A stretch of DNA of 64,000 nucleotides. Source: Candidatus Omnitrophota bacterium. Lineage in GTDB: Bacteria > Omnitrophota > Gorgyraeia > Ghiorseimicrobiales > Ghiorseimicrobiaceae. Positions 42,478 to 64,000 of this stretch are shown in pieces; position 1 is the first letter of the stretch, and the number at the start of each line of letters is the position of its first letter. The notes beneath the pieces are model-generated. The model saw nothing but the letters and a program-made list of their open reading frames with translations. It was not told the DNA's origin and did no database searches. The position numbers were made by a program, and so were the translations under genes. Where the stretch lies: the NCBI GenBank assembly GCA_030681595.1, contig JAUXSB010000056.1:10009-74008 (forward strand). The letters run 5' to 3'.

Positions 42478-43146
42478 CTATTTTAGATAAAAATACGCGC
42501 CGGGAATTAAGGAAAAAATTTGCGCGGATTTAATGAGCAGAAAGACAATTACACCGGCGGTCAAACCAAAAATATGCGCAAGCGCCGGCAGAAAAAATAT
42601 ACTTAATATCAGGATAAACCCCGCTACGGTAAGCACGGTTACTAACGGCACGATGACTAAATTTGCTAAAATGGTTACGGGAGAAATAATCTTAAAATAG
42701 TAGATTATCAATAAAAATGTGCCTACCCACGCCGCCAGCGATACAGAAAAAGATTTAACTGCAAAATTCTTAAAACGCAGGATATTCTCTATCTTCGGTG
42801 AAAGATACACTATTGATAAAACGCTAATAAAAGATAGCTGGAATCCTATCTCTTCTAATTGCAATGGATTAAAGCTAAGAATAATCAAAGCGGCAAAAGA
42901 AAGAGAGTTATAGATATTTACTTCCCTCTCCAGCAATAACCCTATTAAAAGAACCGAACCCATAATCACCGCCCTTACCACTGACGGCTGTGCTCCGGTG
43001 ATAAAATTATAAAATATGAGCGCTATAAGTGCTAAAACATAACGCGGTTTTCTCGGGATACGTAGAATTTTTAAAAATACAAGCAAAATGAAAGCGGTTA
43101 TCGCGATATTCATACCGCTTATAGCTAAAATATGGGTCTTGCCGAG
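42478..43146 (-). pseudogene. comEC: ComEC/Rec2 competence-domain fragment, interrupted at its 5' side by the serine-recombinase element
   Basis: Competence-domain motifs (GAQPSVVRAVIMGSVLL). Upstream of the track Met the same frame reads LGKTHILAISG, matching the ComEC HILAISGLH motif, back to a stop at 43147..43149 inside the recombinase 3' end. The N-terminal region of about 200 aa is absent here. Confidence 0.6.
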
Positions 43147-44726
43147 TCAAAGTAGGATAAAAATTCCTGCTCTGAAGGTGAGGGAATCCGGGGAACGAAA
43201 CAGTCAATATCAATTATCCCGCTGACATTAACCTTTACTGAAGTATTCAAAAGTTTCAATGCCTGTTTCTTTGCCTCATAATTAAACTGCCTGAACTCTT
43301 TTTTTATTTTCTCAATAAAATCAACCGCATGCTTCACTTCAGCTTTCTTGTCGCTTTCATTCAGGCTTAATCTTAAATCCTGCCTTGTCCTTTCAAGATT
43401 TTCTCTTGTTTTTCTCAATGAATCAATCTGCTCTTTCAACTGCTCAATTGTAATGATGCTCTGCCTGTAAGCCTCAAGTATTCTCTGCTCTTCTTTTGTC
43501 AGGCTTTCCTGCATTAAAGAAATCCTCGCAATCTCTTTCTGAGCTGTCTCCCTGCTCATTGACTTGACTTCTTCCCTGTTCTTAATCGCATGCTCTATAA
43601 GGTAAGGATTCTGGAATATTTTCTCAACTTGATTCCAGACTGCATCTTCAAGTTTTCCTGCCTGAACGTACTTTAACCTGCATTTAACAAGCTTCTCAAA
43701 TTTATTTTTGACAAAATGAGTGCACCTGTAATACATCTTGAAATAAGGCCCGTATTTCCTGCCGTTCTTTTCCTGAAACTGCTTGTCAGCTGTTCCTGCT
43801 ATTGTATTGCCGCAGTCCCCGCATTTAACTAATCCCTGCAAAAGATAATGATATTTTGCATTTCTTTCAGAATAATTTCTTCTGTTGTTAAGATATTCCT
43901 GCGCTTTCAAAAAAGCTTCCTCTGAAATCATTTGAGGCACCTTTACCTCAATCCATTCTTCAACAGGTTTCAAACCGCCTGTTTTTGAATCATGCTTGTT
44001 CGCATGCCACTTTCCTATATATATGGTATCTTTCAAAATATCATGGACAACATCTTCCCTCATCAAATGCCCTTCTTTTGTCTTGTAACCCAAAGTACGC
44101 AATTTTCTTGTTACCTTTATAAGAGAAGAATCCGGCTGATTGTAAAGCTCATAGATCAACTTAACAACTTCTGCCTCTTTCTCATTTATCTTAATCTCTT
44201 TTGTTTCCTTGTGATAGATATAGCCGAATCTTGTTGGAGAGGATCCGGAATAATACCCTTCTCTCGCCCTTCTCAGCCTCCCATCCCTTGAACGCTGCAA
44301 AAATGTATTTCTCTCAAGCTCTGCAATCGACCCAAATAATGAAAGCACAAATTTGCCTAAATAATTGGAAGTGTCAAAGGGCTCTGTTATTGAACGGATG
44401 CTTACGCCGAATCTCTGAAGTTCATCAACGGTATTAAGCAAGTTCTTGTTGTTCCTGAAAAATCTGTCAACCCTGTAAACAAGAATCAGCTGCAACTTAT
44501 CCTGCCTTGCGTCTTCCATCAGCCTTTGAAACTGAGGCCTTTCAAAACTCGTTCCGGAATAGCCGTCATCAACGTATTCATCATGAACAATGTATTTATT
44601 ATCAAAGGCATGCTTTCTCAGCAATTCAAGCTGTGAGGCAAGGGAAAAATTCTCCTTCTGCTCTTCTGTTGAGACTCTTGCATACAAGGCAACCTTTATT
44701 ATCTTATTGCCGTTATTATTGTTCAT
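43125..44726 (-). mobile_element. Large serine recombinase (integrase) of an integrative element
   Basis: N-terminal resolvase domain with the catalytic Ser (VALYARVSTEEQ), recombinase domain, Cys-rich zinc ribbon (CGDCGNT ... YYRCTH) and a long coiled coil. 533 aa. Confidence 0.85.
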
Positions 44727-44730
44727 AACG

Positions 44731-45582: not shown

Positions 45583-45616
45583 ATACTTTTTCCTTCGTTA
45601 AACCCCACCAAAGAAT

Positions 45617-46200: not shown

Positions 46201-46486
46201 GAATAATCAAATTAATTATATCCCTTAACGCAATAGGATCGTCTTTAAGATGAATTTTTAATCTGGGAATAAGAATCTGATTCTTTTTAGGGGATAATTC
46301 AACAAATTCTTTAAAAATAAACTCTTTGTCCTCCTCAGAAAAATCCTTGCTCTCAGCCCATTCCTCAAACAGAGAAAGAAAATCCCTGCCATGGAACTTT
46401 CCTGCCCTTATCAGAAATTTCTCCGCCTGTTCTCTGTGAAAGTTTTTCTTATCCATGAATGGTATAAAGTTTTCGGGGAAAGTCAT
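46130..46486 (-). CDS. Hypothetical protein (element)
   Basis: 118-aa ORF. Confidence 0.3.
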   Translation of the reverse strand: MTFPENFIPFMDKKNFHREQAEKFLIRAGKFHGRDFLSLFEEWAESKDFSEEDKEFIFKEFVELSPKKNQILIPRLKIHLKDDPIALRDIINLIIHAIELAEKNEENDKNNLDNKGKL

Positions 46487-46667
46487 CCGTCAGCCTGATC
46501 CTGTAGCCCATTTTTTCCGCATACTTTACTGCAACATATGCCTCTGGCTCTGACACCATGGCAAAAAGGCACAAATCCCGGAAAGCAATGGCTTTCTTGG
46601 GAGAACTGGCCTGCATCAACAGGGCAGCCGCGGTCTCAATCTTTTCCTGTCTCTCATTTCTTTTCAT
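46449..46667 (-). CDS. Hypothetical small protein (element)
   Basis: 72-aa ORF. Confidence 0.3.
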   Translation of the reverse strand: MKRNERQEKIETAAALLMQASSPKKAIAFRDLCLFAMVSEPEAYVAVKYAEKMGYRIRLTDDFPRKLYTIHG

Positions 46668-46985
46668 TTATCTTTCCCTGCGGTTCCGCCCTCTGAAGAT
46701 TTTGTTATCCCAATGATCATGCAGTTCATGCTCTGTCAATTTCGTGAGAAACGGATGAATCTCCCCGGCACCAAAACAATCCTCGCAGGACTTCCTGGGG
46801 TTAAACCCTGGAAATGTCCTTTTGATTATCCCCAAATCATCTTTATCATAACGAAGGAGATGAAAATAACTTTTTCCTGTGCCTTCGCAGCATTCGCACT
46901 TTTCCGGATTAAACATATCATTAAACATCTTGATCCTCCTCCTTTTCCGGCTTGCCTTTATCTTCTTTTGGCTTTCCAAATTCAT
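46668..46985 (-). CDS. Small protein with two DnaJ-type CxxCxGxG zinc-finger motifs
   Basis: CECCEGTGKS and CEDCFGAGEI, with a very basic C-terminus. Confidence 0.4.
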   Translation of the reverse strand: MNLESQKKIKASRKRRRIKMFNDMFNPEKCECCEGTGKSYFHLLRYDKDDLGIIKRTFPGFNPRKSCEDCFGAGEIHPFLTKLTEHELHDHWDNKIFRGRNRRER

Positions 46986-47526
46986 AAGCTGTCATTGCTA
47001 CAAACAAGATAAACTCAACTGCGTAAACATAGCAGAACTGCGCGATTCTCCCTGAAGCCGCAGCATGCGTTGCAGTTATTATCAAATTGAAGGTAACTAG
47101 AACACAGCACGCAATAAAAATCCCCAGTCTTGCCCTGTAATTTAAATTCCCATGCCTTAAAGTGATAAACAGCATCTTTGAGGCAAAAACCGCAATTAAA
47201 ATCAAGGCCTGGCCTGCCCTGAACTCATTGAAAGGCAGAAGGCAGAACAGCGAGTTAAAAAAGCTGAATTTCCATGACACAAGGGCTATTGGCAGAGAGA
47301 ACAGCCACAAGGCAGTCATCAATAGCAAAGAAACAGGCCATCCGGCAAAGCTGTGAAAAAAGAAATTCATGCCCTTGAAAATTATGCTTAAGGAGACAGC
47401 CGAAGAGAAAACCGCAAGAGGCATAATAAAATATGGCAGCAGGGTATCAAACACAAAAAGCAATAAAGGATTCCTCTTCGGCTTAAAGTTTTCATCCAGC
47501 TCAATATCCTCAATGGCTTCGTCCAT
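46921..47526 (-). CDS. Integral membrane hypothetical protein (element)
   Basis: 201 aa with 4 to 5 hydrophobic helices. Confidence 0.4.
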   Translation of the reverse strand: MDEAIEDIELDENFKPKRNPLLLFVFDTLLPYFIMPLAVFSSAVSLSIIFKGMNFFFHSFAGWPVSLLLMTALWLFSLPIALVSWKFSFFNSLFCLLPFNEFRAGQALILIAVFASKMLFITLRHGNLNYRARLGIFIACCVLVTFNLIITATHAAASGRIAQFCYVYAVEFILFVAMTAYEFGKPKEDKGKPEKEEDQDV

Positions 47527-47538
47527 GATTCTGCCTTT

Positions 47539-48168
47539 CTATTCCCATCTTCCAAACTCAACATACAGATTATTGAACTGCACAACTAATGCAGGATCAT
47601 TGATGGCTGCATCCATAATGCCTGCCACGATTGTAAATGGCAGCGCAAATATGCATCCTGCAAATGCAATAGCATTCTCTGACATCGCCTTCATCTCGCT
47701 GTCAATTATCTCCCGGGCATGGCTTTCCATGGGAAAGGCAATCCAGATGCCATCATACTTAACCCTATGCTGCTTTAACACCGCGAGCTTCCTGAACATT
47801 TCTGAGGGAATTTTATCCTGTTCTGAATAATCAGCAATTCTCACGAGAGCCCATTTGAAATCACTGCCCTTAACAACAAACAGATTTTCATTCTCCCTTA
47901 ATACATGAAAGCAAAACGGTTTTGCCTCGAGCCCGGTTTTCTCTAACCCTTTGATTATCTCCCTTCCTGCCTTAAGATGATTCTCTGAACTGCTTAATAT
48001 CCTTGGCTGTCTTGAATCACTCTTAATAAAACTGATTCTTTTTGTTCTGCGTATCCTGCCCGGAATTTCCCCTCTCTGGATTTTTTCCGGCAGAAGAATT
48101 CTCCCTGAAAGTAAATTCTCAATTCCATCCCTTTTTAACAACCTTTCATTCACAATCAGATTTTCCAT
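47539..48168 (-). CDS. Hypothetical protein (element)
   Basis: 209-aa ORF, 2 nt from the ATPase gene. Confidence 0.35.
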   Translation of the reverse strand: MENLIVNERLLKRDGIENLLSGRILLPEKIQRGEIPGRIRRTKRISFIKSDSRQPRILSSSENHLKAGREIIKGLEKTGLEAKPFCFHVLRENENLFVVKGSDFKWALVRIADYSEQDKIPSEMFRKLAVLKQHRVKYDGIWIAFPMESHAREIIDSEMKAMSENAIAFAGCIFALPFTIVAGIMDAAINDPALVVQFNNLYVEFGRWE

Positions 48169-48169
48169 T

Positions 48170-50122
48170 TCATTCCTCCTGGTTTTTGTTCCGGTTAATC
48201 AAATCCCGCAAATCTTTTTTCAAAATCTCAGAAAGCAGCAGCACTGTTGTTCTGTTTCTCATTTCTTCTGGAATTTCCGTAATAATCTGCATCACCTCCT
48301 CTTTGACTTTTTTATCCCTACATGCAATAATAATAAAATCAGCCCTTGCAATACCTATGTCCTTCTCAATGTTTGCCTTTTCATGCAGAGAACTCATCGC
48401 AACCTCTATTGCTATAAGCATGCTTTCATGCTCAACTGCAACGTCAATAAACTTGCCAAACTTGTTAAGCTCAATCTCAGGCTTGTATTCCTTGAAATGC
48501 TCTACAACTAAATGCTGCCATACAAGATGCTCATAGCCTGCACCCTTTCCATAAAATTTCTTTTCCTCAATGCTTAACAGCTTGTAAGCCTGCTCAAGCA
48601 GAACGGGAAACTTGCTTACGCCCTTTCCCTTAACAATTTCAATGATTTTTATCATCTCCGCGCCTTCAAGCTTTTTTGCTGTTTTCGTTCCCCTGCAAGC
48701 TGAGAATCCTGCAATATCATGAATCTCTGTAAGTGTTTTTCTGTACTGGTTGAGGTAAACAGCCATGAGAAATTCCTTCTCATCATTGCTGATTAAAGGC
48801 TTTTCTTCCTTAATGTCCTCCCTGATTCTTGGCACAGGCGCGGAGAAATCCTTTATTATTCCCTCATTGTTTTCTGCCAGCTCTTCTTTGCTCATCGGCT
48901 CTGGAAAATCTGCCTCATAAATAAATGCCACGAATGGCCTTGCAATTCCTCCAAGCTCCACTATGGCTTCATGCTTTTCCCTGTTAAGGTTGCATAAATG
49001 CTGTTTCTGCTCTTTCTCTGTCAGGCCCATATGCTTCTCCATTGCATTCCTGTCAATGCCGGAAAAGGACAACATCATAATCTTGTTTGCCATGTTTGAA
49101 AGAACCGCAGGGCTTAATTCTGCAGGCGACTGCGAGCATAAAATCATATGTATAACCCCTTTTCTTATATTTGCAATAATGTCTGATATAAGCGTTAATT
49201 CCATGCTTTTCTGCAATAACAAATTTGCATCATCAAGGACAACAACCCGCATCCTGTCTGTCTCGCTTGAATAAAGGTGCAGAAGCAATGAATTGACAAT
49301 GAATTTCTGCTCTGAGAGCGTTAATTCCGAGATTTTAAAAATCGCGCTGCTTTTTACGATGTCATCCTCATGCCCTTTCACGCAGTCAAACGTCTTTCCA
49401 AGAGAACTATTAATCAGGCCTCCAAGCCGGTTCAATATACTTTCCTGGTATCTTGCAGTCCTGCTTAATCCCGGATGTTTTCTTGCCCTGATAAAATAAT
49501 ACAAATCATAAAGATTGGGCTCAGGATTCTTTCTTTTCAGCTCTCTTATTGCCTCAAGAAGATATGCCTCACTGCCCTCATATAAAACAAAGGAATCATT
49601 AAAAACAGAGACAAAAACTTCTGGCTTCAGGAAATGCAGCGGATTTATCTGCATCTTCCCGTTGAAATCATCATAAAAAATGTCAGGAAAAACTTTCATC
49701 ATGCTTGTTACCTCATCGGATTTTGCGAAAATCCATGCCTTATGGCCCTGCTCCAATGCTCCCCTGCACAGAATCATATAGGTAAATGTCTTGCCTGTGT
49801 TGGACGAGCCTATGATAAAGGTATGCGGGCTTAATATGGGCCATCCCACATCTTTGCCGGCTTCTGTCAAAGCAAACCTTATCAGGCTGTCAACGTCATC
49901 CGGAACATTAAAAGGCGAGCATGTCAGCTGCATCCTGATTATTTCAGGTGCAAGCTCGTCCAGGCATTCCTTGAACAATCTCTGGTTGCCCGGCTCTGAA
50001 AGTGAATCAAGGCACATTGCCATTCTCTTCCTGTCAAGCATGCCTTTCTTCTTCAGGAGCTCGAAAAGCTCTAAAGGATTCCTGGGAAGAATTCCTTCTA
50101 TTCCCTTCATTGATTCTTCCAT
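48170..50122 (-). CDS. FtsK/HerA-superfamily P-loop ATPase fused to a C-terminal winged-helix plus Hjc-like nuclease module
   Basis: Walker A IIGSSNTGKTF and Walker B VVVLDDANLL about 190 aa apart (FtsK/HerA/TraB-like spacing). C-terminal 170 aa: wHTH, then GYEHLVWQHLVVEHF ... FIDVAV ... IAIEVA, following the E / hhD / (I/V)E(V) pattern of Hjc-type PD-(D/E)xK nucleases with the Lys replaced. The real start may be the Met at about 50041. Confidence 0.6.
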   Translation of the reverse strand: MEESMKGIEGILPRNPLELFELLKKKGMLDRKRMAMCLDSLSEPGNQRLFKECLDELAPEIIRMQLTCSPFNVPDDVDSLIRFALTEAGKDVGWPILSPHTFIIGSSNTGKTFTYMILCRGALEQGHKAWIFAKSDEVTSMMKVFPDIFYDDFNGKMQINPLHFLKPEVFVSVFNDSFVLYEGSEAYLLEAIRELKRKNPEPNLYDLYYFIRARKHPGLSRTARYQESILNRLGGLINSSLGKTFDCVKGHEDDIVKSSAIFKISELTLSEQKFIVNSLLLHLYSSETDRMRVVVLDDANLLLQKSMELTLISDIIANIRKGVIHMILCSQSPAELSPAVLSNMANKIMMLSFSGIDRNAMEKHMGLTEKEQKQHLCNLNREKHEAIVELGGIARPFVAFIYEADFPEPMSKEELAENNEGIIKDFSAPVPRIREDIKEEKPLISNDEKEFLMAVYLNQYRKTLTEIHDIAGFSACRGTKTAKKLEGAEMIKIIEIVKGKGVSKFPVLLEQAYKLLSIEEKKFYGKGAGYEHLVWQHLVVEHFKEYKPEIELNKFGKFIDVAVEHESMLIAIEVAMSSLHEKANIEKDIGIARADFIIIACRDKKVKEEVMQIITEIPEEMRNRTTVLLLSEILKKDLRDLINRNKNQEE

Positions 50123-50624
50123 TACTTACCCTTTCATGAATTTGCAGATTGTACCCCTTGTTATTTGCAAGCGTCATAAGCCATGTATCTGTTCTATCTC
50201 TACCTGTAAACACTGTTCTCGCTGAAATCAGCAGCAGCATGGGCAAATGATGGCTCCTGCATGCATAAGCGCTGTTTACTGCCCTTGCGCAATCCCTGCA
50301 TCCGGGAACAGTGCAAAGTTTCCTGAAACACCCGGGATAAATACAGACAAGAATGTATCTCTGCGCGCATTGCAGGCATATCAGATGCCCTGAATTGCAG
50401 ACATGCCCTATGCCAAGGCTTGCAGAATGGCCGCAGGGCAGGACAATCTCCTTTTCATTGTGAACCATAATTATGCCCTGTTCAGGCACGTAGATTTTGC
50501 CTTTCTCCACCTCTGAGATTATCCCCTTGCCCGGGTCAAATTTTGAGATGCTCTTGTGAATCCTTACTGTCTTTATTCCGCTCGGTCCGTCAATTATAAT
50601 CTTGTTAATGCTTTCTTCGTTCAT
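50034..50624 (-). CDS. Cys/His-rich hypothetical protein (putative zinc-binding)
   Basis: LPCGHSASLGIGHVCNSGHLICLQCAQRYILVCIYPGCFRKLCTVPGCRDCARAVNSAYACRSHH carries about 14 Cys and 6 His within 70 aa. Confidence 0.35.
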   Translation of the reverse strand: MNEESINKIIIDGPSGIKTVRIHKSISKFDPGKGIISEVEKGKIYVPEQGIIMVHNEKEIVLPCGHSASLGIGHVCNSGHLICLQCAQRYILVCIYPGCFRKLCTVPGCRDCARAVNSAYACRSHHLPMLLLISARTVFTGRDRTDTWLMTLANNKGYNLQIHERVSNGRINEGNRRNSSQESFRAFRAPEEERHA

Positions 50625-50636
50625 TTCTCACCTCTC

Positions 50637-51128
50637 TTAAAATTCCCCATCAAAATCCATTCCTGAATCTGCATTAAAATCATCCCCATCTGAAGAATCA
50701 TAATCCTTAACTGCATCTTCTTCTGCCCATTTTGCAGGGCAATCTTCTCTCGTGATAAAACTTCTCTTTTCTACTGTGGCTTTAGGCTCATCAGCTGCAT
50801 TTTCATCTTCCCTGTCATCCTTATGCCTGAACTCATAATCCTCAATCATCCTCTCTTCTGCCTCAAACTTTTCCTGTTCCTTTCTTTCTGCAAGCTCTTC
50901 TGCCCTGGCGCGCCAGAATTCCATGCCTGGATCCTTATCAGGCTCATAAATCTCATAATCCTCAATATCCCGGGCAGGTTCATCCTTGGGAATTCTCGGT
51001 CTTAACTTTTTCCCTCGAAAGGTGTCAAAAAGTGCTTTCAGAAAGCCTATAAAATTAGGTGGATATCTCATCCTGGCTCCTTTCAGTTCAAATTTTTCTT
51101 TTAACTTGAAATTCCGGTTGAACTTCAA
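50637..51128 (-). CDS. Highly acidic hypothetical protein
   Basis: 163 aa. The C-terminal half is about 40% Asp/Glu (EDYEFRHKDDREDENAADEP ... DYDSSDGDDFNADSGMDFDGEF). Confidence 0.35.
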   Translation of the reverse strand: MKFNRNFKLKEKFELKGARMRYPPNFIGFLKALFDTFRGKKLRPRIPKDEPARDIEDYEIYEPDKDPGMEFWRARAEELAERKEQEKFEAEERMIEDYEFRHKDDREDENAADEPKATVEKRSFITREDCPAKWAEEDAVKDYDSSDGDDFNADSGMDFDGEF

Positions 51129-51139
51129 ATCAGAAAAAG

Positions 51140-51529
51140 TTAATTCAGGCTATAGCTGCCAGAACCCCTTGACTCATTCCCGCAGCTCGGGCATTTCTTT
51201 TTGTATAGCCTGCGCGCCTCATCCAGCGGATCAGGAAGCCTTCCATAAGGCACAGGAAACAGGGTTACAGGTCCATACAAACTTTGCCTTATTGAATATC
51301 CCTTCATTTTTATGCCTGCATTTGCATAACCTCTTGGTGTTATGGAAGAATATCCCATCCTTGACGAGTCATTTATTCTGTTCGTTAAGCTATACCCTTT
51401 ACTAGAGCCTGCTAAGCTGTATCCACCACCCGAACCCACTAGAGAATATCTTGAACCACCTCCGGCACTGCCCAGGCTGTAACCTGTTCCGCCAATGCTC
51501 ATGCTTATCCCGCCGCCTTTCTTGCTCAT
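51140..51529 (-). CDS. Gly/Ser-rich GYSL-repeat protein with C-terminal CPSCG motif
   Basis: Repeats GYSLGSAGGGSRYSLVGSGGGYSLAGSSKGYSL, then KKKCPSCGNESRGSGSYSLN. Confidence 0.35.
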   Translation of the reverse strand: MSKKGGGISMSIGGTGYSLGSAGGGSRYSLVGSGGGYSLAGSSKGYSLTNRINDSSRMGYSSITPRGYANAGIKMKGYSIRQSLYGPVTLFPVPYGRLPDPLDEARRLYKKKCPSCGNESRGSGSYSLN

Positions 51530-51623
51530 GAAACCATGAACAGCTGCAATTATTTAAAGTTTTCCCTGTCTTGACTCTCATTGCGGGGCTCTATCAAAGA
51601 GCCCCGCGCTGCCAACTGCGTTT

Positions 51624-52004
51624 TTAGAAACCCTTCATTACAAAGCTGGCATTTGAGCCGAGAGAGCGGATCTTGCCATCAACAAATATATTGTTTATCT
51701 TGGGAATCAGTTCGAAGATCGCTGAATCAGGTGTATGCCCGCGCTCTTTTATCATGAAATTTATGACATCACTGCTAGATGGTCTGGCCTCGGGGTTAAA
51801 CTTGTTCCCCTTAATCAAATCCCTGTAATCAAAAGACTTGATTGGATGCAGCTTGATGTCTGACAAAGGCTCGATGCTTAATTTCCAGGGCTTGATTTCC
51901 GGCACTGTAATCTTAGTGTGCCAGAACTCCAAAGGCAGATTTGTCTCATTAGACATGAACTTGGCAAAGTCGGATTTTATTTCTGAACCGCGAAAGTCTT
52001 TCAT
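51624..52004 (-). CDS. Hypothetical protein (element), strong SD AAAGGAGG
   Basis: 126-aa ORF with a canonical RBS. Confidence 0.4.
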   Translation of the reverse strand: MKDFRGSEIKSDFAKFMSNETNLPLEFWHTKITVPEIKPWKLSIEPLSDIKLHPIKSFDYRDLIKGNKFNPEARPSSSDVINFMIKERGHTPDSAIFELIPKINNIFVDGKIRSLGSNASFVMKGF

Positions 52005-52034
52005 TTCTTCCTCCTTTTTGAATTTCTTTCTGTT

Positions 52035-52163
52035 TTAGTAAGAAATAGCCAATCTCATTCCCTCCTTCACAAACTTTAAGCCCTTCCGGGCCCTGTCCAG
52101 GACTGAAATAGCACGCCTTGACTTACTGAGAATCCTCATCACTTTACGCTTTAGCTTTTTCAT
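52035..52163 (-). CDS. Unannotated 42-aa basic small protein (MKKLKRKVMRILSKSRRAISVLDRARKGLKFVKEGMRLAISY)
   Basis: ATG at 52163 preceded by AGGAGGTG at optimal spacing. Stop at 52035..52037. Below the track size cutoff. Confidence 0.4.
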   Translation of the reverse strand: MKKLKRKVMRILSKSRRAISVLDRARKGLKFVKEGMRLAISY

Positions 52164-52292
52164 CTAGGATCACCTCCTTTCGATTCGCTTCTAGGGTAAG
52201 TTTACAATATCTTTCGTGCGAGATAAAACCACTTGTCTGCCACGTTTGTGCCACGAGTTTAAGGAAAAATTTAAAAGGACGGGGAGCTCAGG

Positions 52293-55898: not shown

Positions 55899-55899
55899 A

Positions 55900-56640
55900 A
55901 GCGGGCTTATTTGATTTTTTACTTATTCTTTATTTTTTATACATCTTGTGGCAAGATTTATATTGATTGATGGATATACTAATTTAAGGATAAACCCTTT
56001 GAATTATATAGAAACCCATAAAAGGGGATTTCGCTAACGGCTAAATGCTCAACCCCAATTTAAGGCTTTCTATCTTATTTATATTAACGACGACGCTGTG
56101 TGCCCCAGCTCTGATTGCCGAGGGCTGATGCCATCTCTGGCAATCGAGGGGGCACTTCGTGCCTCCCTACTACGGCTTAACGTACTACCTTTTTATGCTA
56201 CTTTATTTAGATGCTACTCTCTACTGCTCTGCTAATACTACTCTGCCCCCGTTTTTTACTCACTACTGCTTCTACCTCTAGTACCGCTACATTCACGTAC
56301 CGCTACCTCTTATTCTACCTTTACTATCTCTGACGCTTCTTTTTTATGTTGCTAACGCTACTACTCCACTTACACTTGGACTATTTCTTCTACTTTTATT
56401 TGTTTACTTTACGTAACCTTTTGTCTTACTTTGACTTATTTTTCTTTGACTTGTTCTTGGAGCTTTGACTTGTTCTTGGAGATTTGACTTGTTCTTTTTG
56501 TTTCTATTGGTTTTATTTGTTTCTTTGATTTTACTTATTGATTTATAGTGTGTTGGATTTATTTCTATATATGGGATGGGGATAATAGAAGCGAAGAAAC
56601 AGAAACAAAAGCAAAAGCACGTTCATAAGTCCGGCTTTTT
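55900..56640. repeat. 740-bp gene-free, strongly strand-skewed region (pyrimidine-rich top strand; about 20 GTAG/AGTAG/GGTAG motifs on the bottom strand) with a 54-nt imperfect palindrome (56101..56154) and 19-nt tandem repeats (56427..56500)
   Basis: No ORF of 60 aa or more on either strand. The top strand has almost no G between about 56160 and 56540. CTTTGACTTGTTCTTGGAG occurs about 3.5 times in tandem. Lies immediately 3' of the tyrosine integrase gene. Confidence 0.7.
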
Positions 56641-57832
56641 ATCTGGGATGAGAAATCTTATCCTTTGGTTTAATCAACTTGGATGCCTCATAGGATTTTC
56701 TCCTGAACATGGCGGCTAACTGGTTGAGCTGGTTCCATATTTTTTTCTCGCCCTGCGATAGCCTGTCTATCTCTTTCTCCAGCCTTGATTTATCCGCTTC
56801 AACTAGCAAATCTTCTTTTCTTATATCGCCCGTCAGGCCCAAAAACTCGGTGTAGTAGTTCAGCATGGTAAAATCTGTCCAGCCACCTCTCTGCCTTAGC
56901 GCATCAAGGCTTATTTTCCCGGATTTCTGGGCTATTTGCCTCAGATGGCAGGCCCCTGAGTGCCTGAAATCATAAAGAGTCATCTTTGAATAAAGCTCAC
57001 CTCTCGGATGCGATAATTTATCCCCGAATATCTGCTTGGCCACCTTCTGCAATTTATCTGTAAAGACAGGATAGCTGAATGAGAAAATGTAATCATTGGA
57101 TTCCAGGCCTTTTCTTTTGATATACTTTAATACGGCTTCCCCGCAATAGAGAAAATTGCCTGTTCTCCCTATTGTCTTGCTTATCTCCTGGGAAATATTG
57201 AAATATACCTCCCCCTCCTTTACAAAGATGTCTTTTGCCTTCATGTTCATCAATTCAGTAGGGGCTCTGATTAAGGTGTCAAAGATGAATAGCAATACAA
57301 CCTGCTCATCCTCGCTAAAGTAAGGAAGCATGGAATCTAACTGATCTTTGGTTATATAGACAAACTTTGGCTTTTCTCTTGATGTGTCCAGGTCTTCTGT
57401 AATGTCCGGAATTTGTATCCCTTTTTTTCTGTTTACAGTCATATGCCAATGCCAAAAGGCCTTAAAGATTTTGACATAATCAGCAACGGATTTATAGGCC
57501 TCTCCAACATTGGTTTTGATCTTTCCCGTTCTCATGTCATTAAAAAGGCAGACTAGATCCTTTTCATCCACTTTTGTTATGTCTTTTGCGTCTCTTTTTT
57601 CAAGCATTCCCATTATAAAGGCAATCCTGTATCTCAGGCTATTGAGCCTCTGATAGCTCCTAGCGCCTTTCTTTGCGCCTCTTGGAATGTTTACGCCTTG
57701 TTCCATATCAAAGACATATGCTGTTAAAATCTCAGAGTTTTTGTTGCTCAATCCATCTATTCCTGATTTAGAGATCTCTTCCTTCCAGTCTTTATATCTG
57801 TCTGCGTGATGGTAAATATCCAATTTAACCAT
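56639..57832 (-). mobile_element. Tyrosine recombinase / phage-type integrase
   Basis: C-terminal catalytic region with R..H..R..Y spacing (LYDFRHSGACHLRQ ... LRQRGGWTDFTMLNYY). Confidence 0.8.
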
Positions 57833-58505: not shown

Positions 58506-58904
58506 TCAGCCCTTTATCTGCTCTGCATTGAAAGCCGTACTTGCCTGCCTTTGCCTGGCAGATTCGATAACCTTCTCAAAGTATGCCACTGCCTTGAAGA
58601 AGGGCCTTTCGAATCCCGGCACTCTCACGATGATGCTCCTGCCATCTCTTGTGATGCCTATCTTCAGCTCATCTCTTTTTTCGCCCTGATACTGGTTTAG
58701 GTTTTCTTCCATTTTTGGTTTACCTCCTGTATTAATTACAGAGAGGTAACGCTTATATAGGTTTTCAGCAAAGAATATTAACGGGGGATTTTGGCTGAGG
58801 GATAGGGGATTTAAACTTTGTAAGCAAAGTGTGGCATGAAGTTTATTTGTTAGATAAAATAGATTTTGCAACTCTGAATAAAAATGCGATTGCGCGGGAA
58901 ACAT
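58506..58904 (-). CDS. Hypothetical protein
   Basis: ORF only. The real start may be the internal MEENLNQYQ. Confidence 0.3.
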   Translation of the reverse strand: MFPAQSHFYSELQNLFYLTNKLHATLCLQSLNPLSLSQNPPLIFFAENLYKRYLSVINTGGKPKMEENLNQYQGEKRDELKIGITRDGRSIIVRVPGFERPFFKAVAYFEKVIESARQRQASTAFNAEQIKG

Positions 58905-58940
58905 TAATATGATATTATTAATAAGTATTAAGGAGTCGAA

Positions 58941-59915
58941 ATGTCATGGTCAGAGAATTTATTTCTAAATGTACTTAAAGCTGCCGCTCCCACTGCATTT
59001 ATCTACGAAAAAGATTTTTCTCCCTTCGTAAAGGATATCACTTCTCTTTGTGAACAAAACAAAATCCCGTTAGATTGTATTCTAGTTGATTTTGATGGCA
59101 TAACTCTTTCTCCCAAAATAGCTGAAGTATTACTCAACGATAAACATAAAATTATTCTGTTTGGTCTGAAAGAAAATGTTTGGCATTTCCCTGAGCGACA
59201 GCAAGCCAAAAGTAAACTCAAAAAAAAGCTGATTTCTCTAGCATGTTATTACGACCGCATCACTGAAGAAGGAGATTATGATAATAGTATTATTAAAGCA
59301 TTGGCGAATGACTTAGCCTTAGCACGTCTATTCGAGAAAGGGAAAAAGGTAACCATAGCTAGTCCTAGCGGAACTAAAATTAAAGCGGAGATAGGGGAGA
59401 GGAGTTTTTTTGAAAACGGTGACTATAGCAAATGTGGGAGTGGCGGTGATTTCCCATCGGGAGAAGTCGGATTTGGGCCGAAAGAAAATAGCGTAAATGG
59501 TCTTATTGTCTTTGACCTGAAAATTCAACATATAGGCACAGTATCGAACTTAAAAGTAGAAGTTGAACAAGATAAGATAGTTACGATAGAAGGTGAAAAA
59601 AAGGAGGCCTACGAAAAGTTATTAAAGAAGCACGACATATTAAATCTTATTAGTGAAATATCAATCGGGATTAATCCTTTTATCAGAATCAAAAATGAAC
59701 CTTCAGTATTGGAAGAAAAGAAATTAGGAACGGTTCATTTCGGACATGGAGCTAATTTGTCTTATGGTAAAAGAAAAGGGTTGCACTTCGATGCGGTTAT
59801 AAGGGATCCTACCTTCACAATAGAAGATAAAATAATCCTTAAGAGGGGAGGAATCAACAAAATCATTCTTTCGGAAGAGACAAAATCGCTCCTAGAAAAG
59901 GTTGACGAAAGTTGA
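58941..59915 (+). CDS. Hypothetical protein, possibly metallopeptidase-like (M29 aminopeptidase-like His/Asp cluster)
   Basis: LGTVHFGHGANLSYGKRKGLHFDAVIRD. Weak similarity only. Confidence 0.3.
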   Translation: MSWSENLFLNVLKAAAPTAFIYEKDFSPFVKDITSLCEQNKIPLDCILVDFDGITLSPKIAEVLLNDKHKIILFGLKENVWHFPERQQAKSKLKKKLISLACYYDRITEEGDYDNSIIKALANDLALARLFEKGKKVTIASPSGTKIKAEIGERSFFENGDYSKCGSGGDFPSGEVGFGPKENSVNGLIVFDLKIQHIGTVSNLKVEVEQDKIVTIEGEKKEAYEKLLKKHDILNLISEISIGINPFIRIKNEPSVLEEKKLGTVHFGHGANLSYGKRKGLHFDAVIRDPTFTIEDKIILKRGGINKIILSEETKSLLEKVDES

Positions 59916-59951
59916 AATATATGCTATACTTATAATCTATCATTAGATAAC

Positions 59952-60731
59952 ATGGAAAATCCAATCAAATTCAAGAATAATAGCAACTTGATCCTTGCAG
60001 GCATACTGAATAGTCCTGTTGAATCTAGTAACGCAGGCATCATATTGTTGCATGGTTTTGCAGGAAACAAAGAGGAGAATGGGTTATTCCCATATGCTGC
60101 AAATATCCTCAGTGCCAATGGTTATCATACATTAAGATTTGACTTTGCTGGGGTAGGTGAAAGCCAAGGCGATTATTCAAAAAGCACTTTAAATAGTCAA
60201 AAAGAAGACTTTATTTCTTCTCTGGATTTTTTTGTTAAAAAGTGTCATTTAAGCAGAGTTGGAGTAGTTGGTTTTAGTCTTGGAGCAACAATCGCCTTGC
60301 TTGGTTATGAGAAAAAAATAAAAGCAATGGCGTTATGGAGCCCCGCTTTGTTTCCCAAGAAAGATATGTTCCCTCGCTATCAGACAAATGAATTCAAAAG
60401 ACATCTAAAAGGATATGGCTATATAAATAAAGGGGGGCTAAAAGTTGGGAGTGAAATAATAGATGATTTGGGTAAATGCGATCTGATTCCTTTTATAAGA
60501 AGAGTGGAGTGCGAAGTATTATTGATACACGGAGATAGAGACGAAAGAATAAATTATAAGAGTACCTTAAGAGCAGAAAGAAAATTTCTTAAAGCACAGA
60601 CTTATATAATAAAAAATTCTGGACATTCATACAAAGAAAGTTATCTTGTGAAAGAAGAAGTTTTAAATAAGACTATAGAACTTTTCAATAGAAATATTCT
60701 GCATAAAGTACCTGCCAAGAATTTGGTATAA
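59952..60731 (+). CDS. Alpha/beta hydrolase (dienelactone hydrolase/esterase type)
   Basis: Nucleophile elbow VVGFSLGATIAL (G-x-S-x-G), an N-terminal ILLHGFAG oxyanion region, and a C-terminal HGDRDERI with the His of the triad. Confidence 0.65.
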   Translation: MENPIKFKNNSNLILAGILNSPVESSNAGIILLHGFAGNKEENGLFPYAANILSANGYHTLRFDFAGVGESQGDYSKSTLNSQKEDFISSLDFFVKKCHLSRVGVVGFSLGATIALLGYEKKIKAMALWSPALFPKKDMFPRYQTNEFKRHLKGYGYINKGGLKVGSEIIDDLGKCDLIPFIRRVECEVLLIHGDRDERINYKSTLRAERKFLKAQTYIIKNSGHSYKESYLVKEEVLNKTIELFNRNILHKVPAKNLV

Positions 60732-60918
60732 CTCCTTTTAATCTAATTAGTTAAAATAAAAGAGGGCAGTTTTAAGTCATGCCCGGGACTTTTTAGTGGT
60801 AGTGTTAGCATTAGCTTTTCCCCGCTGATGTCCTTATCCATTCATAGACAAGTGAGAAGGTGTTTTCATCCTTCGTAGGGTCTGGTTTTAAGTCCAGCAA
60901 CTTCTTTCCTCCTTTCTG

Positions 60919-61161
60919 TTAAACCTGATATACCTCAAGCACAATGCTTTGTAGCTCGCTTTGCATTGACTTGTCCACCAATGTAACGGTCGGATACCAC
61001 TTGCTGTCCTTGCCTTGTGATTTTGGCATCGTTACAAATAATCCATTGGTGCCCTCAATTATTCTCACTCCTTTCACAAGAACTTGGTTTATCACAACAT
61101 CGGCAAACGCCTTCAATGACGAGCCGTTTTCAACCCGATGCAACCTCGCAACCTCTATCAT
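60919..61161 (-). CDS. spoVG: SpoVG-family protein
   Basis: IEVARLHRVENGSSLKAFADVVINQVLVKGVRIIEGTNGLFVTMPKSQ is collinear with B. subtilis SpoVG ([49 protein letters not shown]). Confidence 0.75.
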   Translation of the reverse strand: MIEVARLHRVENGSSLKAFADVVINQVLVKGVRIIEGTNGLFVTMPKSQGKDSKWYPTVTLVDKSMQSELQSIVLEVYQV

Positions 61162-61501
61162 TTTTTACCTCCTCTCCCCATCTCTGCGCTTCCCTGATTT
61201 TCTTAACTTCGCTTGCTTTACAAGGATTCCAATGCAAATCCCTGTCAACCTCAACAAAGCTCACCTTGAGACTGCTTAACTCTTCAAGGCTGAAATAGCC
61301 CCACTCTGCCATTTCAAGATCATTATTGAGTATCGCGAACCCAAAGAAACATTTTTCCTCAGGTGAATACTCGCAGGCATACCAGTCACAGCCACCGATG
61401 AAAAAATGCATGTGAATCATCTTTTTCTTGAGATGCACTTCCTCACTTGAATAAAAAGCCGGCAGCTTTGCCATCTCTTCTTTTGTAGGCATGTTCCACA
61501 T
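61130..61501 (-). CDS. DUF2958-family protein (typical ICE/plasmid cargo)
   Basis: GGCDWYACEYSPEEKCFFGFAIL ... AEWGYFSLEEL matches the DUF2958 core pattern. Confidence 0.5.
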   Translation of the reverse strand: MWNMPTKEEMAKLPAFYSSEEVHLKKKMIHMHFFIGGCDWYACEYSPEEKCFFGFAILNNDLEMAEWGYFSLEELSSLKVSFVEVDRDLHWNPCKASEVKKIREAQRWGEEVKNDRGCEVASG

Positions 61502-61532
61502 GATTCAGCTCCTTTCTCTTTAACCTGTCTTT

Positions 61533-61778
61533 TTATTCGAGAATCAGATTTTTCCCTGCAATAAGAATCTCTCCCGGGCTCTTGAGCTTCCCGAGGATTT
61601 CCTTATTAACAAGCACTGCCAGCGGCTCGGTAACGTAATCCCCTTGCGTGCCGTTCAGGGCAGCAATAACCGCTGTATCTATACCCCCTAATTCCGTTGC
61701 AAGCAGCACAAAATTGCTGAACTGACCGCTTATTATGTGCCTGTATTTCTTTGTCTCTTCAGGGGTAATATCCCTCAT
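61533..61778 (-). CDS. Hypothetical small protein
   Basis: 81-aa ORF. Confidence 0.3.
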   Translation of the reverse strand: MRDITPEETKKYRHIISGQFSNFVLLATELGGIDTAVIAALNGTQGDYVTEPLAVLVNKEILGKLKSPGEILIAGKNLILE

Positions 61779-61791
61779 CCGTCATCTCCTT

Positions 61792-62034
61792 TCATTTTTC
61801 ATCGTTAATGTAGCAACCCTTACAGTCATCATTTTTGTCAGCAAGGCAGGCCTCGCAGATAATATCTCCTGCTACTGCCTTTAATGACTGCTTAATCAAT
61901 GATTCTGCAATCTCTGTCATTGGCTTTTTGTAAACCCTTTTCAGCCTGTAGATTGTTCTTACTGCCTTTTCACTCAATACTGGACTGTACAACTTTCTCC
62001 TCCTTTCCGCTGCAGAAGCTGCATTCGCACGCAC
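61792..62034 (-). CDS. Small Cys-rich protein (C-terminal CxxC ... CxGC)
   Basis: ICEACLADKNDDCKGCYINDEK. Likely start at the internal Met (MTEIAESL). Confidence 0.3.
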   Translation of the reverse strand: MRANAASAAERRRKLYSPVLSEKAVRTIYRLKRVYKKPMTEIAESLIKQSLKAVAGDIICEACLADKNDDCKGCYINDEK

Positions 62035-62977: not shown

Positions 62978-63919
62978 TTAATCTATTTCAAAATTCAAGA
63001 CAGAGGTTATCTTTATCTTGGCATTAATCAGTTTATTTTCAGCCAGGCATTGCCGGATTTTTTCTTCTGCTTCTTTGCTTGTCGCAACGCAGACAGTATT
63101 GTCAAACGCCTTTAAATCCCTTGCAATATTCCTGATGAAATCAGAGCTGCCTGTTTCTATCTCAATGGCTGTCTGCCTGCTTTTATTGAGGATGATAATA
63201 TCGGGCCTGCCGTTAATGTGCTCTTCAACGAGAATTTCAAACCCTTTATTTTTGTAATACTCGGCTATCCTGAATTTCCAGAATTTATGCTCTATGCCTT
63301 CTTTGTCATCCTTGACTTCATAACCCAAATCCCTCAGCAGGCCTTTTCCTTTTGGAGTTAATTCAAACAATGTTATCCAGCCTGAGTTAGTAATAATCCT
63401 TACCGGCTTGATAAAGCCATTTTCAATCAATGAGCTCCTGTGCCGGTTTCCTGTGCCCGGGCTTATGTTCATTCTCCTGTATCTCTGGGTTATCCCGGAA
63501 AGCTGATTTGTAAAAACGTCTATAAGAAGCCTTTCGGGAGGGGTATTCGCATATTCGCATCTTTCTCTAACCTTACTATTATCCCCCTGCGAATACCCCC
63601 TGTTTTCATCGCTTTTACCGTCGCTGGCAGGCTTGGAATACCCCCTCCCGTGCTCTTTAAGCCAATCATCAGTTATCTTGCCCTTTTCAACAGGCACGTA
63701 GAGGAACTGGGTAAGGCATGGATTTATTCTCTCCATTATTTTGACTATTCCCTGGCCTGTTTTGAGCATGTTCAAATATGCCTCATCATCTCTTGGCAGA
63801 AACATCGCCTTTCTTGCCGACTCTATGTCCTCCTGGTGCTGCAATGCAAGAAATATCAGGGTATGGGAATTACCAAGAACGTAAATCGGCAGAAGCGAGG
63901 GATGCTGCGTAATGCTCAC
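62978..63919 (-). CDS. Hypothetical protein whose C-terminal 170 aa is paralogous to the ATPase C-terminal wHTH plus Hjc-like nuclease module
   Basis: GIEHKFWKFRIAEYYK ... GRPDIIIL ... TAIEIETGSSDF aligns position-for-position with the ATPase C-terminus GYEHLVWQHLVVEHFK ... GKFIDVAV ... IAIEVAMSSLH. The preceding segment (GFIKPVRIITNSGWITLFELTPKGKGLL) aligns with the ATPase wHTH. The N-terminus may extend beyond 63919. Confidence 0.5.
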   Translation of the reverse strand: MSITQHPSLLPIYVLGNSHTLIFLALQHQEDIESARKAMFLPRDDEAYLNMLKTGQGIVKIMERINPCLTQFLYVPVEKGKITDDWLKEHGRGYSKPASDGKSDENRGYSQGDNSKVRERCEYANTPPERLLIDVFTNQLSGITQRYRRMNISPGTGNRHRSSLIENGFIKPVRIITNSGWITLFELTPKGKGLLRDLGYEVKDDKEGIEHKFWKFRIAEYYKNKGFEILVEEHINGRPDIIILNKSRQTAIEIETGSSDFIRNIARDLKAFDNTVCVATSKEAEEKIRQCLAENKLINAKIKITSVLNFEID

Positions 63920-64000
63920 GATTCCCTGCCCGAAGCTTCTTATCTCACGATAAACATTCTCAAGGCTGTCTATCCTGTCCTTCTCATATTTTATCTTCTG

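What the first reader, a model, noticed from the sequence alone, without database searches (positions are those of the whole stretch)
48170..50122. FtsK/HerA-type ATPase fused to a wHTH plus Hjc-like nuclease module, which is duplicated in a second element protein
The 650-aa protein has Walker A and Walker B about 190 residues apart, as in FtsK/HerA/TraB DNA translocases. Its C-terminus of about 170 aa is a winged helix followed by a PD-(D/E)xK-like core (GxEHxxW ... hhDhhh ... hAIEV) that resembles archaeal Hjc resolvase but with the catalytic Lys replaced. The same wHTH plus nuclease-like module recurs, residue-by-residue alignable, in the 313-aa protein at 62978..63919, about 13 kb away in the same element. 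A translocase carrying a sequence-reading and DNA-cutting module, with a free-standing copy of that module elsewhere, is not a described conjugation, packaging or defence architecture. Candidate roles are Streptomyces TraB-like dsDNA transfer with clt recognition, an element-encoded defence ATPase-nuclease, or a novel packaging or resolution system.
Basis: partly seen in the sequence, partly recalled or inferred. Interest (0 to 1): 0.75.

Follow-up and report, generated by a model that had tools for sequence, protein, structure and literature searches.

The report
HerA-type motor fused to targeting nuclease
The gene encodes a ring-forming DNA motor (HerA type) fused to a DNA-reading domain and a restriction-enzyme-like cutting domain; this uncharacterised but widespread protein type sits in small integrating mobile elements, and the supposed free-standing second copy is really the tail of a second such motor cut off by the window end.

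Summary

The canonical Lys is absent. H532, E551, D560, E573 and N584 are kept in 144-146 of 146 diverse relatives, with Glu (109) or Ala (32) at the Lys position, so a working BamHI/TraX-style "ExE" site is likely.

The "313-aa free-standing copy" is wrong. That frame is open to base 64000 and is the C-terminal half of a second, ~20%-identical DUF87/HerA ATPase carrying the same module.

The two genes lie in two adjacent element modules, each ending in its own recombinase: a Tyr integrase at 56639-57832 and a large Ser recombinase at 43125-44726 beside a split comEC. The same pairing recurs in three other loci.

The module is not rare: 3,637 cluster representatives match it. It has no Pfam family, no solved relative and no description I could find.

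Best reading, at moderate confidence: a site-directed nick-and-pump enzyme for the element's own DNA, relaxase/initiator-like. The main rival is an element-borne defence nuclease-motor. New variant of a known kind.

The parts
48170..50122 (-). ATPase-A: 650-aa HerA-clade ATPase with C-terminal wHTH + PD-(D/E)xK module (family 1). The N-terminal extension is conserved (K24 invariant), so the start lies upstream of the M34 used by a gene caller for the identical database protein P0001.
48833..49837 (-). P-loop ATPase core, residues ~96-430. Walker A is at 49787-49810, Walker B at 49223-49246, with the R320/Q331 C-lobe motifs.
48563..48784 (-). MarR-type winged helix-turn-helix, residues ~447-520.
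48203..48562 (-). PD-(D/E)xK-fold domain, residues ~521-640. Key residues are H532 (alpha1), E551 (beta1), D560 (beta2), E573-V-A575 (beta3) and N584 (alpha2).
50034..50624 (-). Small Cys-rich (Zn-ribbon/treble-clef-like) partner gene immediately upstream of ATPase-A and overlapping it. Homologues hold the same position in 9 other family-1 loci.
62978..64000 (-). ATPase-B: C-terminal 340 aa of a second DUF87/HerA ATPase (family 2), cut by the window end. The ATPase C-lobe is ~63700-64000, the wHTH ~63317-63538 and the PD-(D/E)xK domain ~62981-63316, with an H...E...D...E-I-E...N motif.
56639..57832 (-). Tyrosine integrase closing the B-type module. It is 61% identical to the integrase at the same position in L024.
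58506..62034 (-). B-type backbone genes colinear with L024/L030/L032: c6 61792-62034, c14 61533-61778, DUF2958 61130-61501, SpoVG-like 60919-61161 and c15 58506-58904. An inserted abhydrolase and M29-like gene pair lies on the + strand at 58941-60731.
43125..44726 (-). Large serine recombinase closing the A-type module, next to the comEC fragment at 42478-43113.
56429..56500 (.). Four tandem copies of CTTTGACTT(G/A)TT(C/T)TT in the non-coding stretch between the Tyr integrase and the A-type genes. They are a candidate binding site, but the role is untested and they are not conserved in related loci.

Best explanation
ATPase-A, and its paralogue ATPase-B, is the DNA-processing enzyme of a family of small integrating mobile elements.

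Shown:
- It is a soluble HerA-clade P-loop ATPase.
- Its C-terminus carries a MarR-type winged helix followed by a restriction-endonuclease-fold domain.
- The putative active-site residues of that domain (H, E, D, E-x-E/A, N) are almost invariant across the family.
- The gene sits, with a small partner gene, a few kb from the element's recombinase.

Inferred mechanism:
1. After excision, the winged helix docks the protein on a specific site of the element's DNA.
2. The nuclease domain nicks or cuts there, without the canonical Lys, in a BamHI/TraX-like 'ExE' manner.
3. The ATPase ring loads at the break.
4. The ring unwinds or pumps the DNA.

This would be a relaxase/initiator and a motor in one chain, serving replication and/or transfer of the element. 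The two diverged paralogues would each read their own module's site.
For: - HerA-clade ATPase.
- wHTH.
- Active-site-position residues are kept in 144-146 of 146 representatives, with Glu in 109 and Ala in 32 at the Lys position.
- Element context of family 1: L001, L002, L004-6, L012 and L016 carry Tyr integrases; L015, L017 and the window carry Ser recombinases.
- Family-2 backbone is colinear across loci. The partner c1 is present in 33 of 41 loci. An integrase of one cluster lies within 10 kb downstream in 9 of the 24 loci with at least 8 kb of downstream flank, and upstream in 4 further loci.
- No other recognisable relaxase, Rep or primase is present in element A.
- The same domain order and size (wHTH then PD-(D/E)xK) is found in MOBC relaxases such as pAD1 TraX. 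TraX binds direct repeats in oriT and forms no covalent intermediate (PMC12857230).
- The TraX family invariants are H102, E129, D152 and E170-x-E172, the same residue pattern.
- DUF2958 and a ThiF/JAB cassette occur in these elements. From my own knowledge these are typical of conjugative-element leading regions.
- HerA-like helicases are a top family in archaeal integrated 'dark matter' islands (PMC4158269).
Against: - No profile similarity to the TraX family beyond a weak wHTH match: hhalign probability 0.6%, E 0.09. No PF13814 hit.
- No conjugation genes or type IV secretion genes were detected in the element.
- Some related elements carry their own Orc1/Cdc6-like initiator, so the protein is not needed as the initiator there.
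- The tandem repeats near the gene are not conserved in relatives.
- All loci were found by searching with the ATPase itself, so its apparent 'core' status is partly ascertainment.
- A compact two-gene cassette near integrases and toxin-antitoxin/Abi genes is also how defence genes look.
- No biochemical data exist.
Confidence: 0.4

Rival explanations
1. It is an element-borne defence or exclusion system. A HerA-type motor with a built-in nuclease effector, plus a small partner, attacks incoming phage or rival mobile-element DNA. It would be analogous to HerA-DUF4297, Sir2-HerA or an ATP-driven type IV restriction enzyme (wHTH + REase as in Mrr, motor + PD-(D/E)xK as in McrBC).
For: - The closest solved relatives include the DUF87 protein 8yho and several HerA chains; three of these entries (8wiv, 8j4u, 8wet) I recall, from my own knowledge, as defence-system components, while 4d2i is the archaeal repair HerA.
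- PADLOC mad8 scores 6.6e-18, with weak HerA models as well.
- It forms a compact two-gene module (partner + ATPase, overlapping genes) seen in varying surroundings.
- Neighbours include HEPN AbiU2, AbiEi/AbiEii and MazE/ParE.
- E1/E2/JAB genes lie adjacent in L001, L010, L015 and L024. Such genes occur in CBASS/Bil-type defence.
- HerA-nuclease defence complexes are documented (PMC11291478).
Against: - The mad8 model was built from generic PDB homologues, and no other mad genes or methyltransferase are nearby.
- PADLOC HerA hits cover only residues 320-413.
- The gene keeps a fixed place in a colinear element backbone next to the recombinase across diverged elements, unlike typical variable cargo.
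- A sequence-reading MarR-type wHTH that has diverged to ~20% identity between co-resident paralogues fits self-site recognition better than generic foreign-DNA attack.
Confidence: 0.3
2. It is a TraB/FtsK-like double-stranded DNA conjugation translocase or a viral genome-packaging ATPase, with the wHTH reading a clt/pac-like site.
For: - It belongs to the FtsK-HerA superfamily, and a C-terminal wHTH recalls the FtsK gamma domain and TraB (own knowledge).
- It gives weak PHROG hits, including a family annotated as terminase large subunit: E 6.8e-6 over residues 290-425.
- It lies in a small integrating element with few other enzymes.
Against: - FtsK is a weaker match than HerA.
- It has no transmembrane segment: maximum Kyte-Doolittle 19-residue window 1.33.
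- Neither family is in IMG/VR, and there is one marginal hit in 50,697 phage genomes.
- No capsid or portal families are present.
- At 650 aa it is far larger than PRD1-type packaging ATPases (own knowledge).
Confidence: 0.08
3. The nuclease-fold domain is catalytically dead and serves only as a DNA-binding or oligomerisation domain. The protein would then be a site-specific helicase or remodeller, for example a replicative helicase loaded at the element origin.
For: - The canonical Lys of (D/E)xK is absent in all 146 representatives.
- Some relatives keep the wHTH but lack the nuclease domain (L015 B-like copy).
- Closely related ~446-aa DUF87 ATPases lack the whole module.
- Orc1/Cdc6-like genes sit next to B-like copies in L010 and L015.
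Against: - Near-invariance of H, E, D, E and N at the positions of a PD-(D/E)xK metal site is hard to explain without catalysis.
- ExE and ExQ variants are active in BamHI and BglII (own knowledge), and the TraX family has ExE.
Confidence: 0.12

Closest known systems
HerA-nuclease machines (HerA-NurA; HerA-DUF4297 and Sir2-HerA defence complexes)
   Same: A HerA-clade hexameric ATPase is coupled to a DNA-degrading effector. DUF4297 is also PD-(D/E)xK-type. The closest solved sequences are DUF87/HerA chains (PMC11291478, PMC3326311).
   Different: Here the nuclease is fused in cis behind a sequence-reading wHTH. There is no NurA, Sir2 or DUF4297 partner. The partner is a small Zn-ribbon protein (family 1) or a coiled-coil protein (family 2). 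The gene sits in the backbone of an integrating element.
MOBC relaxases (pAD1 TraX, CloDF13 MobC; Pfam PF13814 Replic_Relax)
   Same: An N-terminal winged helix is followed by a PD-(D/E)xK catalytic domain, ~200-260 aa in all. The invariant pattern is H...E...D...ExE. TraX acts on a mobile element's own DNA and binds direct repeats (PMC12857230).
   Different: There is no significant sequence or profile similarity. The module here is fused to a motor ATPase. No type IV secretion or coupling-protein genes are nearby.
FtsK gamma domain / Streptomyces TraB
   Same: A motor of the same superfamily carries a C-terminal winged helix that reads short DNA motifs (own knowledge).
   Different: It belongs to a different clade, being closer to HerA than to FtsK. 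It has no membrane anchor. It has an extra nuclease domain.
arCOG00280 HerA-like helicases of archaeal integrated elements
   Same: [quoted passage not shown] L010 has an archaeal-type context with a Cdc6 winged-helix protein.
   Different: Whether arCOG00280 members carry the wHTH-nuclease module was not tested. The window is bacterial and probably from Omnitrophota.
VirB4 / CedB-CedD pairs of DNA-transfer systems
   Same: The best NCBIfam hit is CedD (E 2.7e-12), followed by VirB4 (5e-8). Two paralogous ATPases co-occur in one locus, as CedB and CedD or VirB4 and VirD4 do (10.1101/2024.09.27.615246; PMC6563490).
   Different: The scores are far below the family cut-offs: 46 against 600 bits and 32 against 643 bits. 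No VirB6, VirB3 or pilin genes were detected. The VirB4 and Ced ATPases have no wHTH-nuclease tail.

Membership tests
FtsK-HerA superfamily of P-loop ATPases | Walker A, Walker B (hhhhDD/E) and conserved C-lobe Arg/Gln motifs in an ASCE core | tested here: met
   GSSNTGKT is at 105-112 and VVVLDDAN at 293-300. R320, Q331, P333 and N343 are invariant. Profile hits go to HerA, DUF87, FtsK, VirB4 and CedD.
HerA clade (Pfam DUF87 PF01935 / HerA_C PF05872) | A match to the family models at the curated threshold | tested here: inconclusive
   ATPase-A itself gives only HerA_C at E 0.11, below cut-off. Its relatives P0007 and P0010 carry PF01935. The best PDB profile hits are DUF87 8yho at 1.4e-7 and HerA 4d2i at 1e-5. 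Relatives of ATPase-B carry PF01935 and PF05872, and 10 of 10 long module-bearing proteins hit DUF87.
FtsK/SpoIIIE/TraB translocases | PF01580 motor as the best match, together with an N-terminal membrane anchor | tested here: not met
   FtsK scores E 7e-3, weaker than HerA. No hydrophobic segment is present: maximum Kyte-Doolittle 19-residue window 1.33.
VirB4 / CedD | A score above the NCBIfam cut-off | tested here: not met
   CedD scores 46.1 bits against a cut-off of 600. VirB4_CagE scores 31.6 bits against 643.
PD-(D/E)xK (restriction-endonuclease-like) fold | An alpha-beta-beta-beta-alpha-beta core | tested here: met
PD-(D/E)xK (restriction-endonuclease-like) fold | The canonical catalytic motif: D on beta2 and (D/E)xK on beta3 | tested here: not met
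   D560 and E573 are present. The Lys position is Ala in family 1 and Glu in family 2, and is never Lys in 146 representatives. It is therefore a variant ExE/ExA site.
Archaeal Hjc Holliday-junction resolvase | A specific structural or sequence match to Hjc | tested here: not met
MarR-type winged helix | A three-helix bundle plus a beta-hairpin wing matching MarR-family structures | tested here: met
MOBC relaxases (PF13814, TraX) | The domain order wHTH then PD-(D/E)xK | tested here: met
   PMC12857230.
MOBC relaxases (PF13814, TraX) | Detectable sequence or profile homology to the family | tested here: not met
   hhalign of A2 against a 15-sequence TraX-family alignment gives probability 0.6% and E 0.09, in the wHTH only. 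No PF13814 hit appears among the 19 members. No C-module hit was found in 72,556 plasmids.
MOBC relaxases (PF13814, TraX) | Site-specific nicking at an oriT and dependence on a conjugation apparatus | not testable with these tools
   This needs biochemistry and mating assays.
MADS defence system (mad8) | Membership of the 8-gene mad operon with its methyltransferase and kinase | tested here: not met
   The PADLOC mad8 hit scores 6.6e-18. However, the neighbours have no such domains, and the model derives from generic PDB homologues.

The most novel reading that the evidence does not exclude
These proteins define a new class of mobile-element DNA-processing enzyme: a HerA motor fused to a MOBC-like (wHTH + ExE nuclease) relaxase/initiator. 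It would be the hallmark gene of a previously unrecognised, widespread family of small integrating elements in uncultivated bacteria (Omnitrophota, Desulfobacterota, Nitrospirota, Desantisbacteria, Elusimicrobia) and archaea. The recurrent A-type/B-type pair would work together as VirB4/VirD4 or CedB/CedD pairs do, giving a minimal transfer or replication system independent of classical relaxases and Rep proteins.
Probability: 0.2. Interest if true: 0.8.

Novelty: new variant of a known kind. Interest (0 to 1): 0.55.

Why it matters
If the nick-and-pump reading is right, it would explain how a large set of small integrating elements moves or replicates. These elements occur in uncultivated phyla and lack any recognisable relaxase, Rep or capsid. 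It would also add a motor-fused, Lys-less PD-(D/E)xK enzyme to the short list of non-HUH relaxase/initiator types.

If the defence reading is right, it adds a single-chain HerA-nuclease to the defence repertoire.

Either way, the module deserves its own family definition. It has 3,637 cluster representatives and five near-invariant residues, yet no Pfam family and no structure.

Tried and rejected
- **Free-standing second copy:** rejected. The frame is open to the window end and the upstream part is an ATPase C-lobe.
- **Single element:** not supported as stated. Region 56639-64000 is colinear with independent B-type elements that end in the Tyr integrase. Because the pairing recurs, a composite element is not excluded.
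- **MOBC membership by homology:** rejected. The CloDF13 record was too poorly annotated or frameshifted to yield MobC.
- **Viral packaging ATPase:** no support.
- **STAND NTPase:** the Pfam nSTAND3 hit (20 bits against a 27.2 cut-off) covers only the P-loop region.
- **MADS:** generic hit only.
- **Conserved iterons or clt-like repeats:** the 19-nt repeats are not shared with L002/L036 or any other locus.
- **Split wHTH-nuclease gene next to short DUF87 ATPases:** none found in L101.
- **Structured RNA in 43000-64000:** no Rfam match.
- **Extending the window past 64000:** the exact 60-mer was not found in GTDB genomes or JGI metagenomes.
- **AFDB Foldseek:** library unavailable.
- **The 2004 FtsK-HerA survey by Iyer et al.:** could not be read. 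An earlier mention of this fusion there cannot be excluded.
Full report
**1. What is at the coordinates**

ORF 48170..50122 on the minus strand encodes 650 aa. An identical database protein (P0001) was called from Met34. The N-terminal extension is nevertheless conserved in relatives (K24 invariant), so the true start lies upstream of M34.

Walker A (GSSNTGKT) is at residues 105-112 and Walker B (VVVLDDAN) at 293-300, so K111 and D297 are 186 residues apart. No 19-residue window is hydrophobic enough for a membrane helix.

**2. The ATPase**

Pfam gives nothing above threshold. The other libraries give the following.

- NCBIfam: CedD at 2.7e-12 and VirB4 at 5e-8, both far below their cut-offs, plus weak HerA models.
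- PADLOC: mad8 at 6.6e-18 and weak HerA models. The mad8 model was built from generic PDB homologues.
- A seven-sequence profile against PDB sequences ranks a DUF87 protein (8yho, 1.4e-7) and Sulfolobus HerA (4d2i, 1e-5) first. FtsK follows at 7e-3, and TrwB and VirB4 are above 0.1.

It is therefore a soluble HerA-clade member of the FtsK-HerA superfamily. It is not a TraB/FtsK-type membrane translocase.

**3. The C-terminal module**

I aligned the last ~200 residues of 19 proteins from both families. H532, E551, D560, A571, E573 and N584 are invariant.

- The profile matches MarR-type repressors (ZitR/AdcR, 1.6e-4) over the first ~80 residues.
- Individual members give weak restriction-endonuclease-fold Pfam hits: CoiA_nuc in 9 of 19, AHJR-like in 5 of 19, plus MTES_1575 and DUF559.
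- AlphaFold2 models the module at pLDDT 91.4 as a winged helix followed by alpha-beta-beta-beta-alpha-beta.

The fold assignment is therefore solid, and 'Hjc-like' is too specific. Mapped on the model, H532 lies on alpha1, E551 on beta1, D560 on beta2, E573 and A575 on beta3, and N584 on alpha2.

Among 146 diverse representatives, H, E, D, E and N are kept in 144-146. The canonical Lys position is Glu in 109, Ala in 32 and never Lys. This argues for a functional, non-canonical 'ExE/ExA' site rather than a decayed one.

**4. The second copy**

The ORF listed as 313 aa (62978..63919) has no stop upstream. The frame is open to base 64000.

- The extra residues and its N-terminus align with the ATPase C-lobe and hit the CedD and HerA models.
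- Its 107 database relatives are DUF87/HerA_C proteins. The first ~100 residues are 55-63% identical to ~446-aa DUF87 ATPases that lack the module.
- Full-length relatives are ~666 aa. L009 shows the gene split into DUF87 and HerA_C halves.
- Homology of the two modules is robust. Cross-family leave-one-out HMMs give 1.1e-11 each way, and hhalign gives 97.7%.

The window therefore holds two whole motor-nuclease paralogues (about 20% identity), not a motor plus a free-standing module.

Free-standing versions may exist elsewhere. Of the top 146 representatives, 23 are 200-261-aa proteins that start with Met and consist of little more than the module. Their completeness was not checked.

**5. Abundance**

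A profile of the module finds 3,637 representatives (50%-identity clusters) at E<=1e-3, 1,665 at <=1e-10 and 301 at <=1e-30.

Of the 146 examined, 42 are at least 600 aa with the module at the C-terminus, and 36 of those have a GxxGxGK[ST] P-loop. All 10 long ones I scanned hit DUF87.

One representative (P0149) carries DHH-DHHA1 domains after the module. Family 1 itself is rare, with 13 hits in 5.8 billion sequences.

**6. Genomic setting**

The window is bacterial, with a sigma-70-type factor and comEC. It is probably from Omnitrophota. L007 is 100% identical to window 39884-56473.

*Region 56639-64000 (B-type module).* This region is colinear, at 63-85% nucleotide identity, with B-type elements in L024, L030, L032 and others. 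The shared order is:

- a wHTH regulator (c3);
- a coiled-coil partner (c1) overlapping the ATPase start, present in 33 of 41 loci;
- ATPase-B;
- two small genes (c6, c14);
- DUF2958;
- a cassette of a 76-aa protein, a 195-aa protein, ThiF and Prok-JAB, which is absent from the window;
- SpoVG, then c15;
- a Tyr integrase, which in the window is 56639-57832 and is 61% identical to that of L024.

*Region ~43125-56630 (A-type module).* This region holds TPR and small unknown proteins, a Cys-rich partner, ATPase-A, small genes including an Xis-like HTH, and a large serine recombinase abutting a truncated comEC.

- The Cys-rich partner occupies the same place in 9 other family-1 loci.
- Family-1 genes elsewhere are followed by Tyr integrases (L001, L004-6, L012, L016) or accompanied by Ser recombinases (L015, L017).

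*Pairing of the two types.* The B-then-A order recurs in three other places.

- The merged contig L036+L002, which overlap at 99.9%.
- L015 (Desantisbacteria). There the B-like copy keeps the wHTH but lacks the nuclease and is followed by an Orc1/Cdc6-like gene.
- L010, which carries two ATPases, ThiF and a Cdc6 winged-helix protein.

Other loci have only one type within 10 kb. Whether the window holds two tandem elements or one composite cannot be settled.

**7. What it is not**

- Neither family occurs in IMG/VR.
- Phage genomes give one marginal hit.
- PHROGs give only weak ATPase-core hits and nothing for the neighbours.
- Plasmids in PLSDB match only the ATPase core, never the module.
- The remaining A-type proteins match no Pfam, PHROG or NCBIfam family.

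**8. Mechanism**

Known HerA machines pair the ring with an effector: NurA, DUF4297 or Sir2 (PMC3326311, PMC11291478).

The combination of a wHTH followed by a PD-(D/E)xK domain of ~200-260 aa is also the architecture of MOBC relaxases. pAD1 TraX has an N-terminal winged helix and a restriction-endonuclease-type active site. It binds direct repeats in oriT and forms no covalent intermediate (PMC12857230).

I retrieved the pTEF1 TraX homologue and its family. Its invariant residues are H102, E129, D152 and E170-x-E172, the same pattern as here. However, profile-profile comparison is not significant. This is a resemblance in design, not demonstrated homology.

These facts bear on the choice between readings:

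- the fixed position of the gene in element backbones;
- the absence of any other recognisable DNA-processing gene;
- the strong divergence of the wHTH between co-resident paralogues.

I therefore favour a site-directed nick-and-load motor acting on the element's own DNA (confidence 0.4).

The main rival is an element-borne defence or exclusion nuclease-motor (0.3). It is supported by the similarity to defence HerA proteins, the compact two-gene cassette, and the neighbouring Abi, toxin-antitoxin and E1/E2/JAB genes. Ascertainment bias also weakens the 'core gene' argument.

A TraB-like or packaging role is unlikely (0.08). A catalytically dead domain is possible but disfavoured by the residue conservation (0.12).

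**9. Novelty**

I found no Pfam family, solved structure, defence-database model or paper for this fusion. HerA-like helicases have been noted as one of the commonest families in archaeal integrated 'dark matter' islands, with unknown role (PMC4158269).

The 2004 survey of the superfamily could not be read. Both the parts and the motor-plus-nuclease logic are known.

I therefore rate it as a new variant of a known kind, with moderate interest.

Noticed in passing
window 42478-44726: A comEC ('Competence' domain) ORF begins at profile position 31, directly beside a large serine recombinase. This suggests the element inserted into comEC. The other half of comEC is not in the window.
   Followed up: partly
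window 54717-55459: A ~750-nt stretch is 80% nucleotide-identical to L002/L036 and 75% to L023 (a B-type locus). That is higher than the adjacent protein genes (72-76%). Short ORFs on both strands look conserved, and there is no Rfam match. It may be a conserved DNA site or an unknown RNA.
   Followed up: partly
window 56429-56500: Four tandem copies of CTTTGACTT(G/A)TT(C/T)TT lie between the Tyr integrase stop and the A-type genes. They are not conserved in any related locus.
   Followed up: yes
window 58753-58794 and 62924-62965: A 42-nt direct repeat (81% identity). One copy lies just downstream of the ATPase-B stop and the other inside the c15 ORF. Its role is unknown.
   Followed up: no
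window 58941-60731 and 62197-62820: Relative to L024/L030, the B-type module has gained an abhydrolase and M29-like peptidase pair (+ strand) and a GNAT acetyltransferase. It has lost the cassette of a 76-aa protein, a 195-aa protein, ThiF and Prok-JAB between DUF2958 and SpoVG.
   Followed up: yes
L001 7251-9988; L010 886-3424; L015 13123-15552; L024 12298-14987: ThiF (E1-like) genes, with E2-CBASS or Prok-JAB and small proteins, recur beside both ATPase families in bacteria and in an archaeal-type locus. This is a possible ubiquitin-like conjugation cassette linked to these elements.
   Followed up: partly
L015 684-1784; L010 11140-11871: Orc1/Cdc6-like genes (AAA+, Cdc6 lid and winged helix) sit just downstream of B-like ATPases, including in a bacterial (Desantisbacteria) contig.
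   Followed up: no
window 51140-51529 and 46668-46985: A 129-aa protein has Gly/Ser/Tyr 'GYSL' repeats and a C-terminal CxxC, and is conserved in L002. A 105-aa protein has two DnaJ-type CxxCxGxG motifs. Both are unannotated element genes.
   Followed up: no
P0149 (996 aa): One relative carries DHH and DHHA1 (RecJ-like) domains after the wHTH-nuclease module. This recalls the reported RecJ-HerA interaction in Deinococcus.
   Followed up: no
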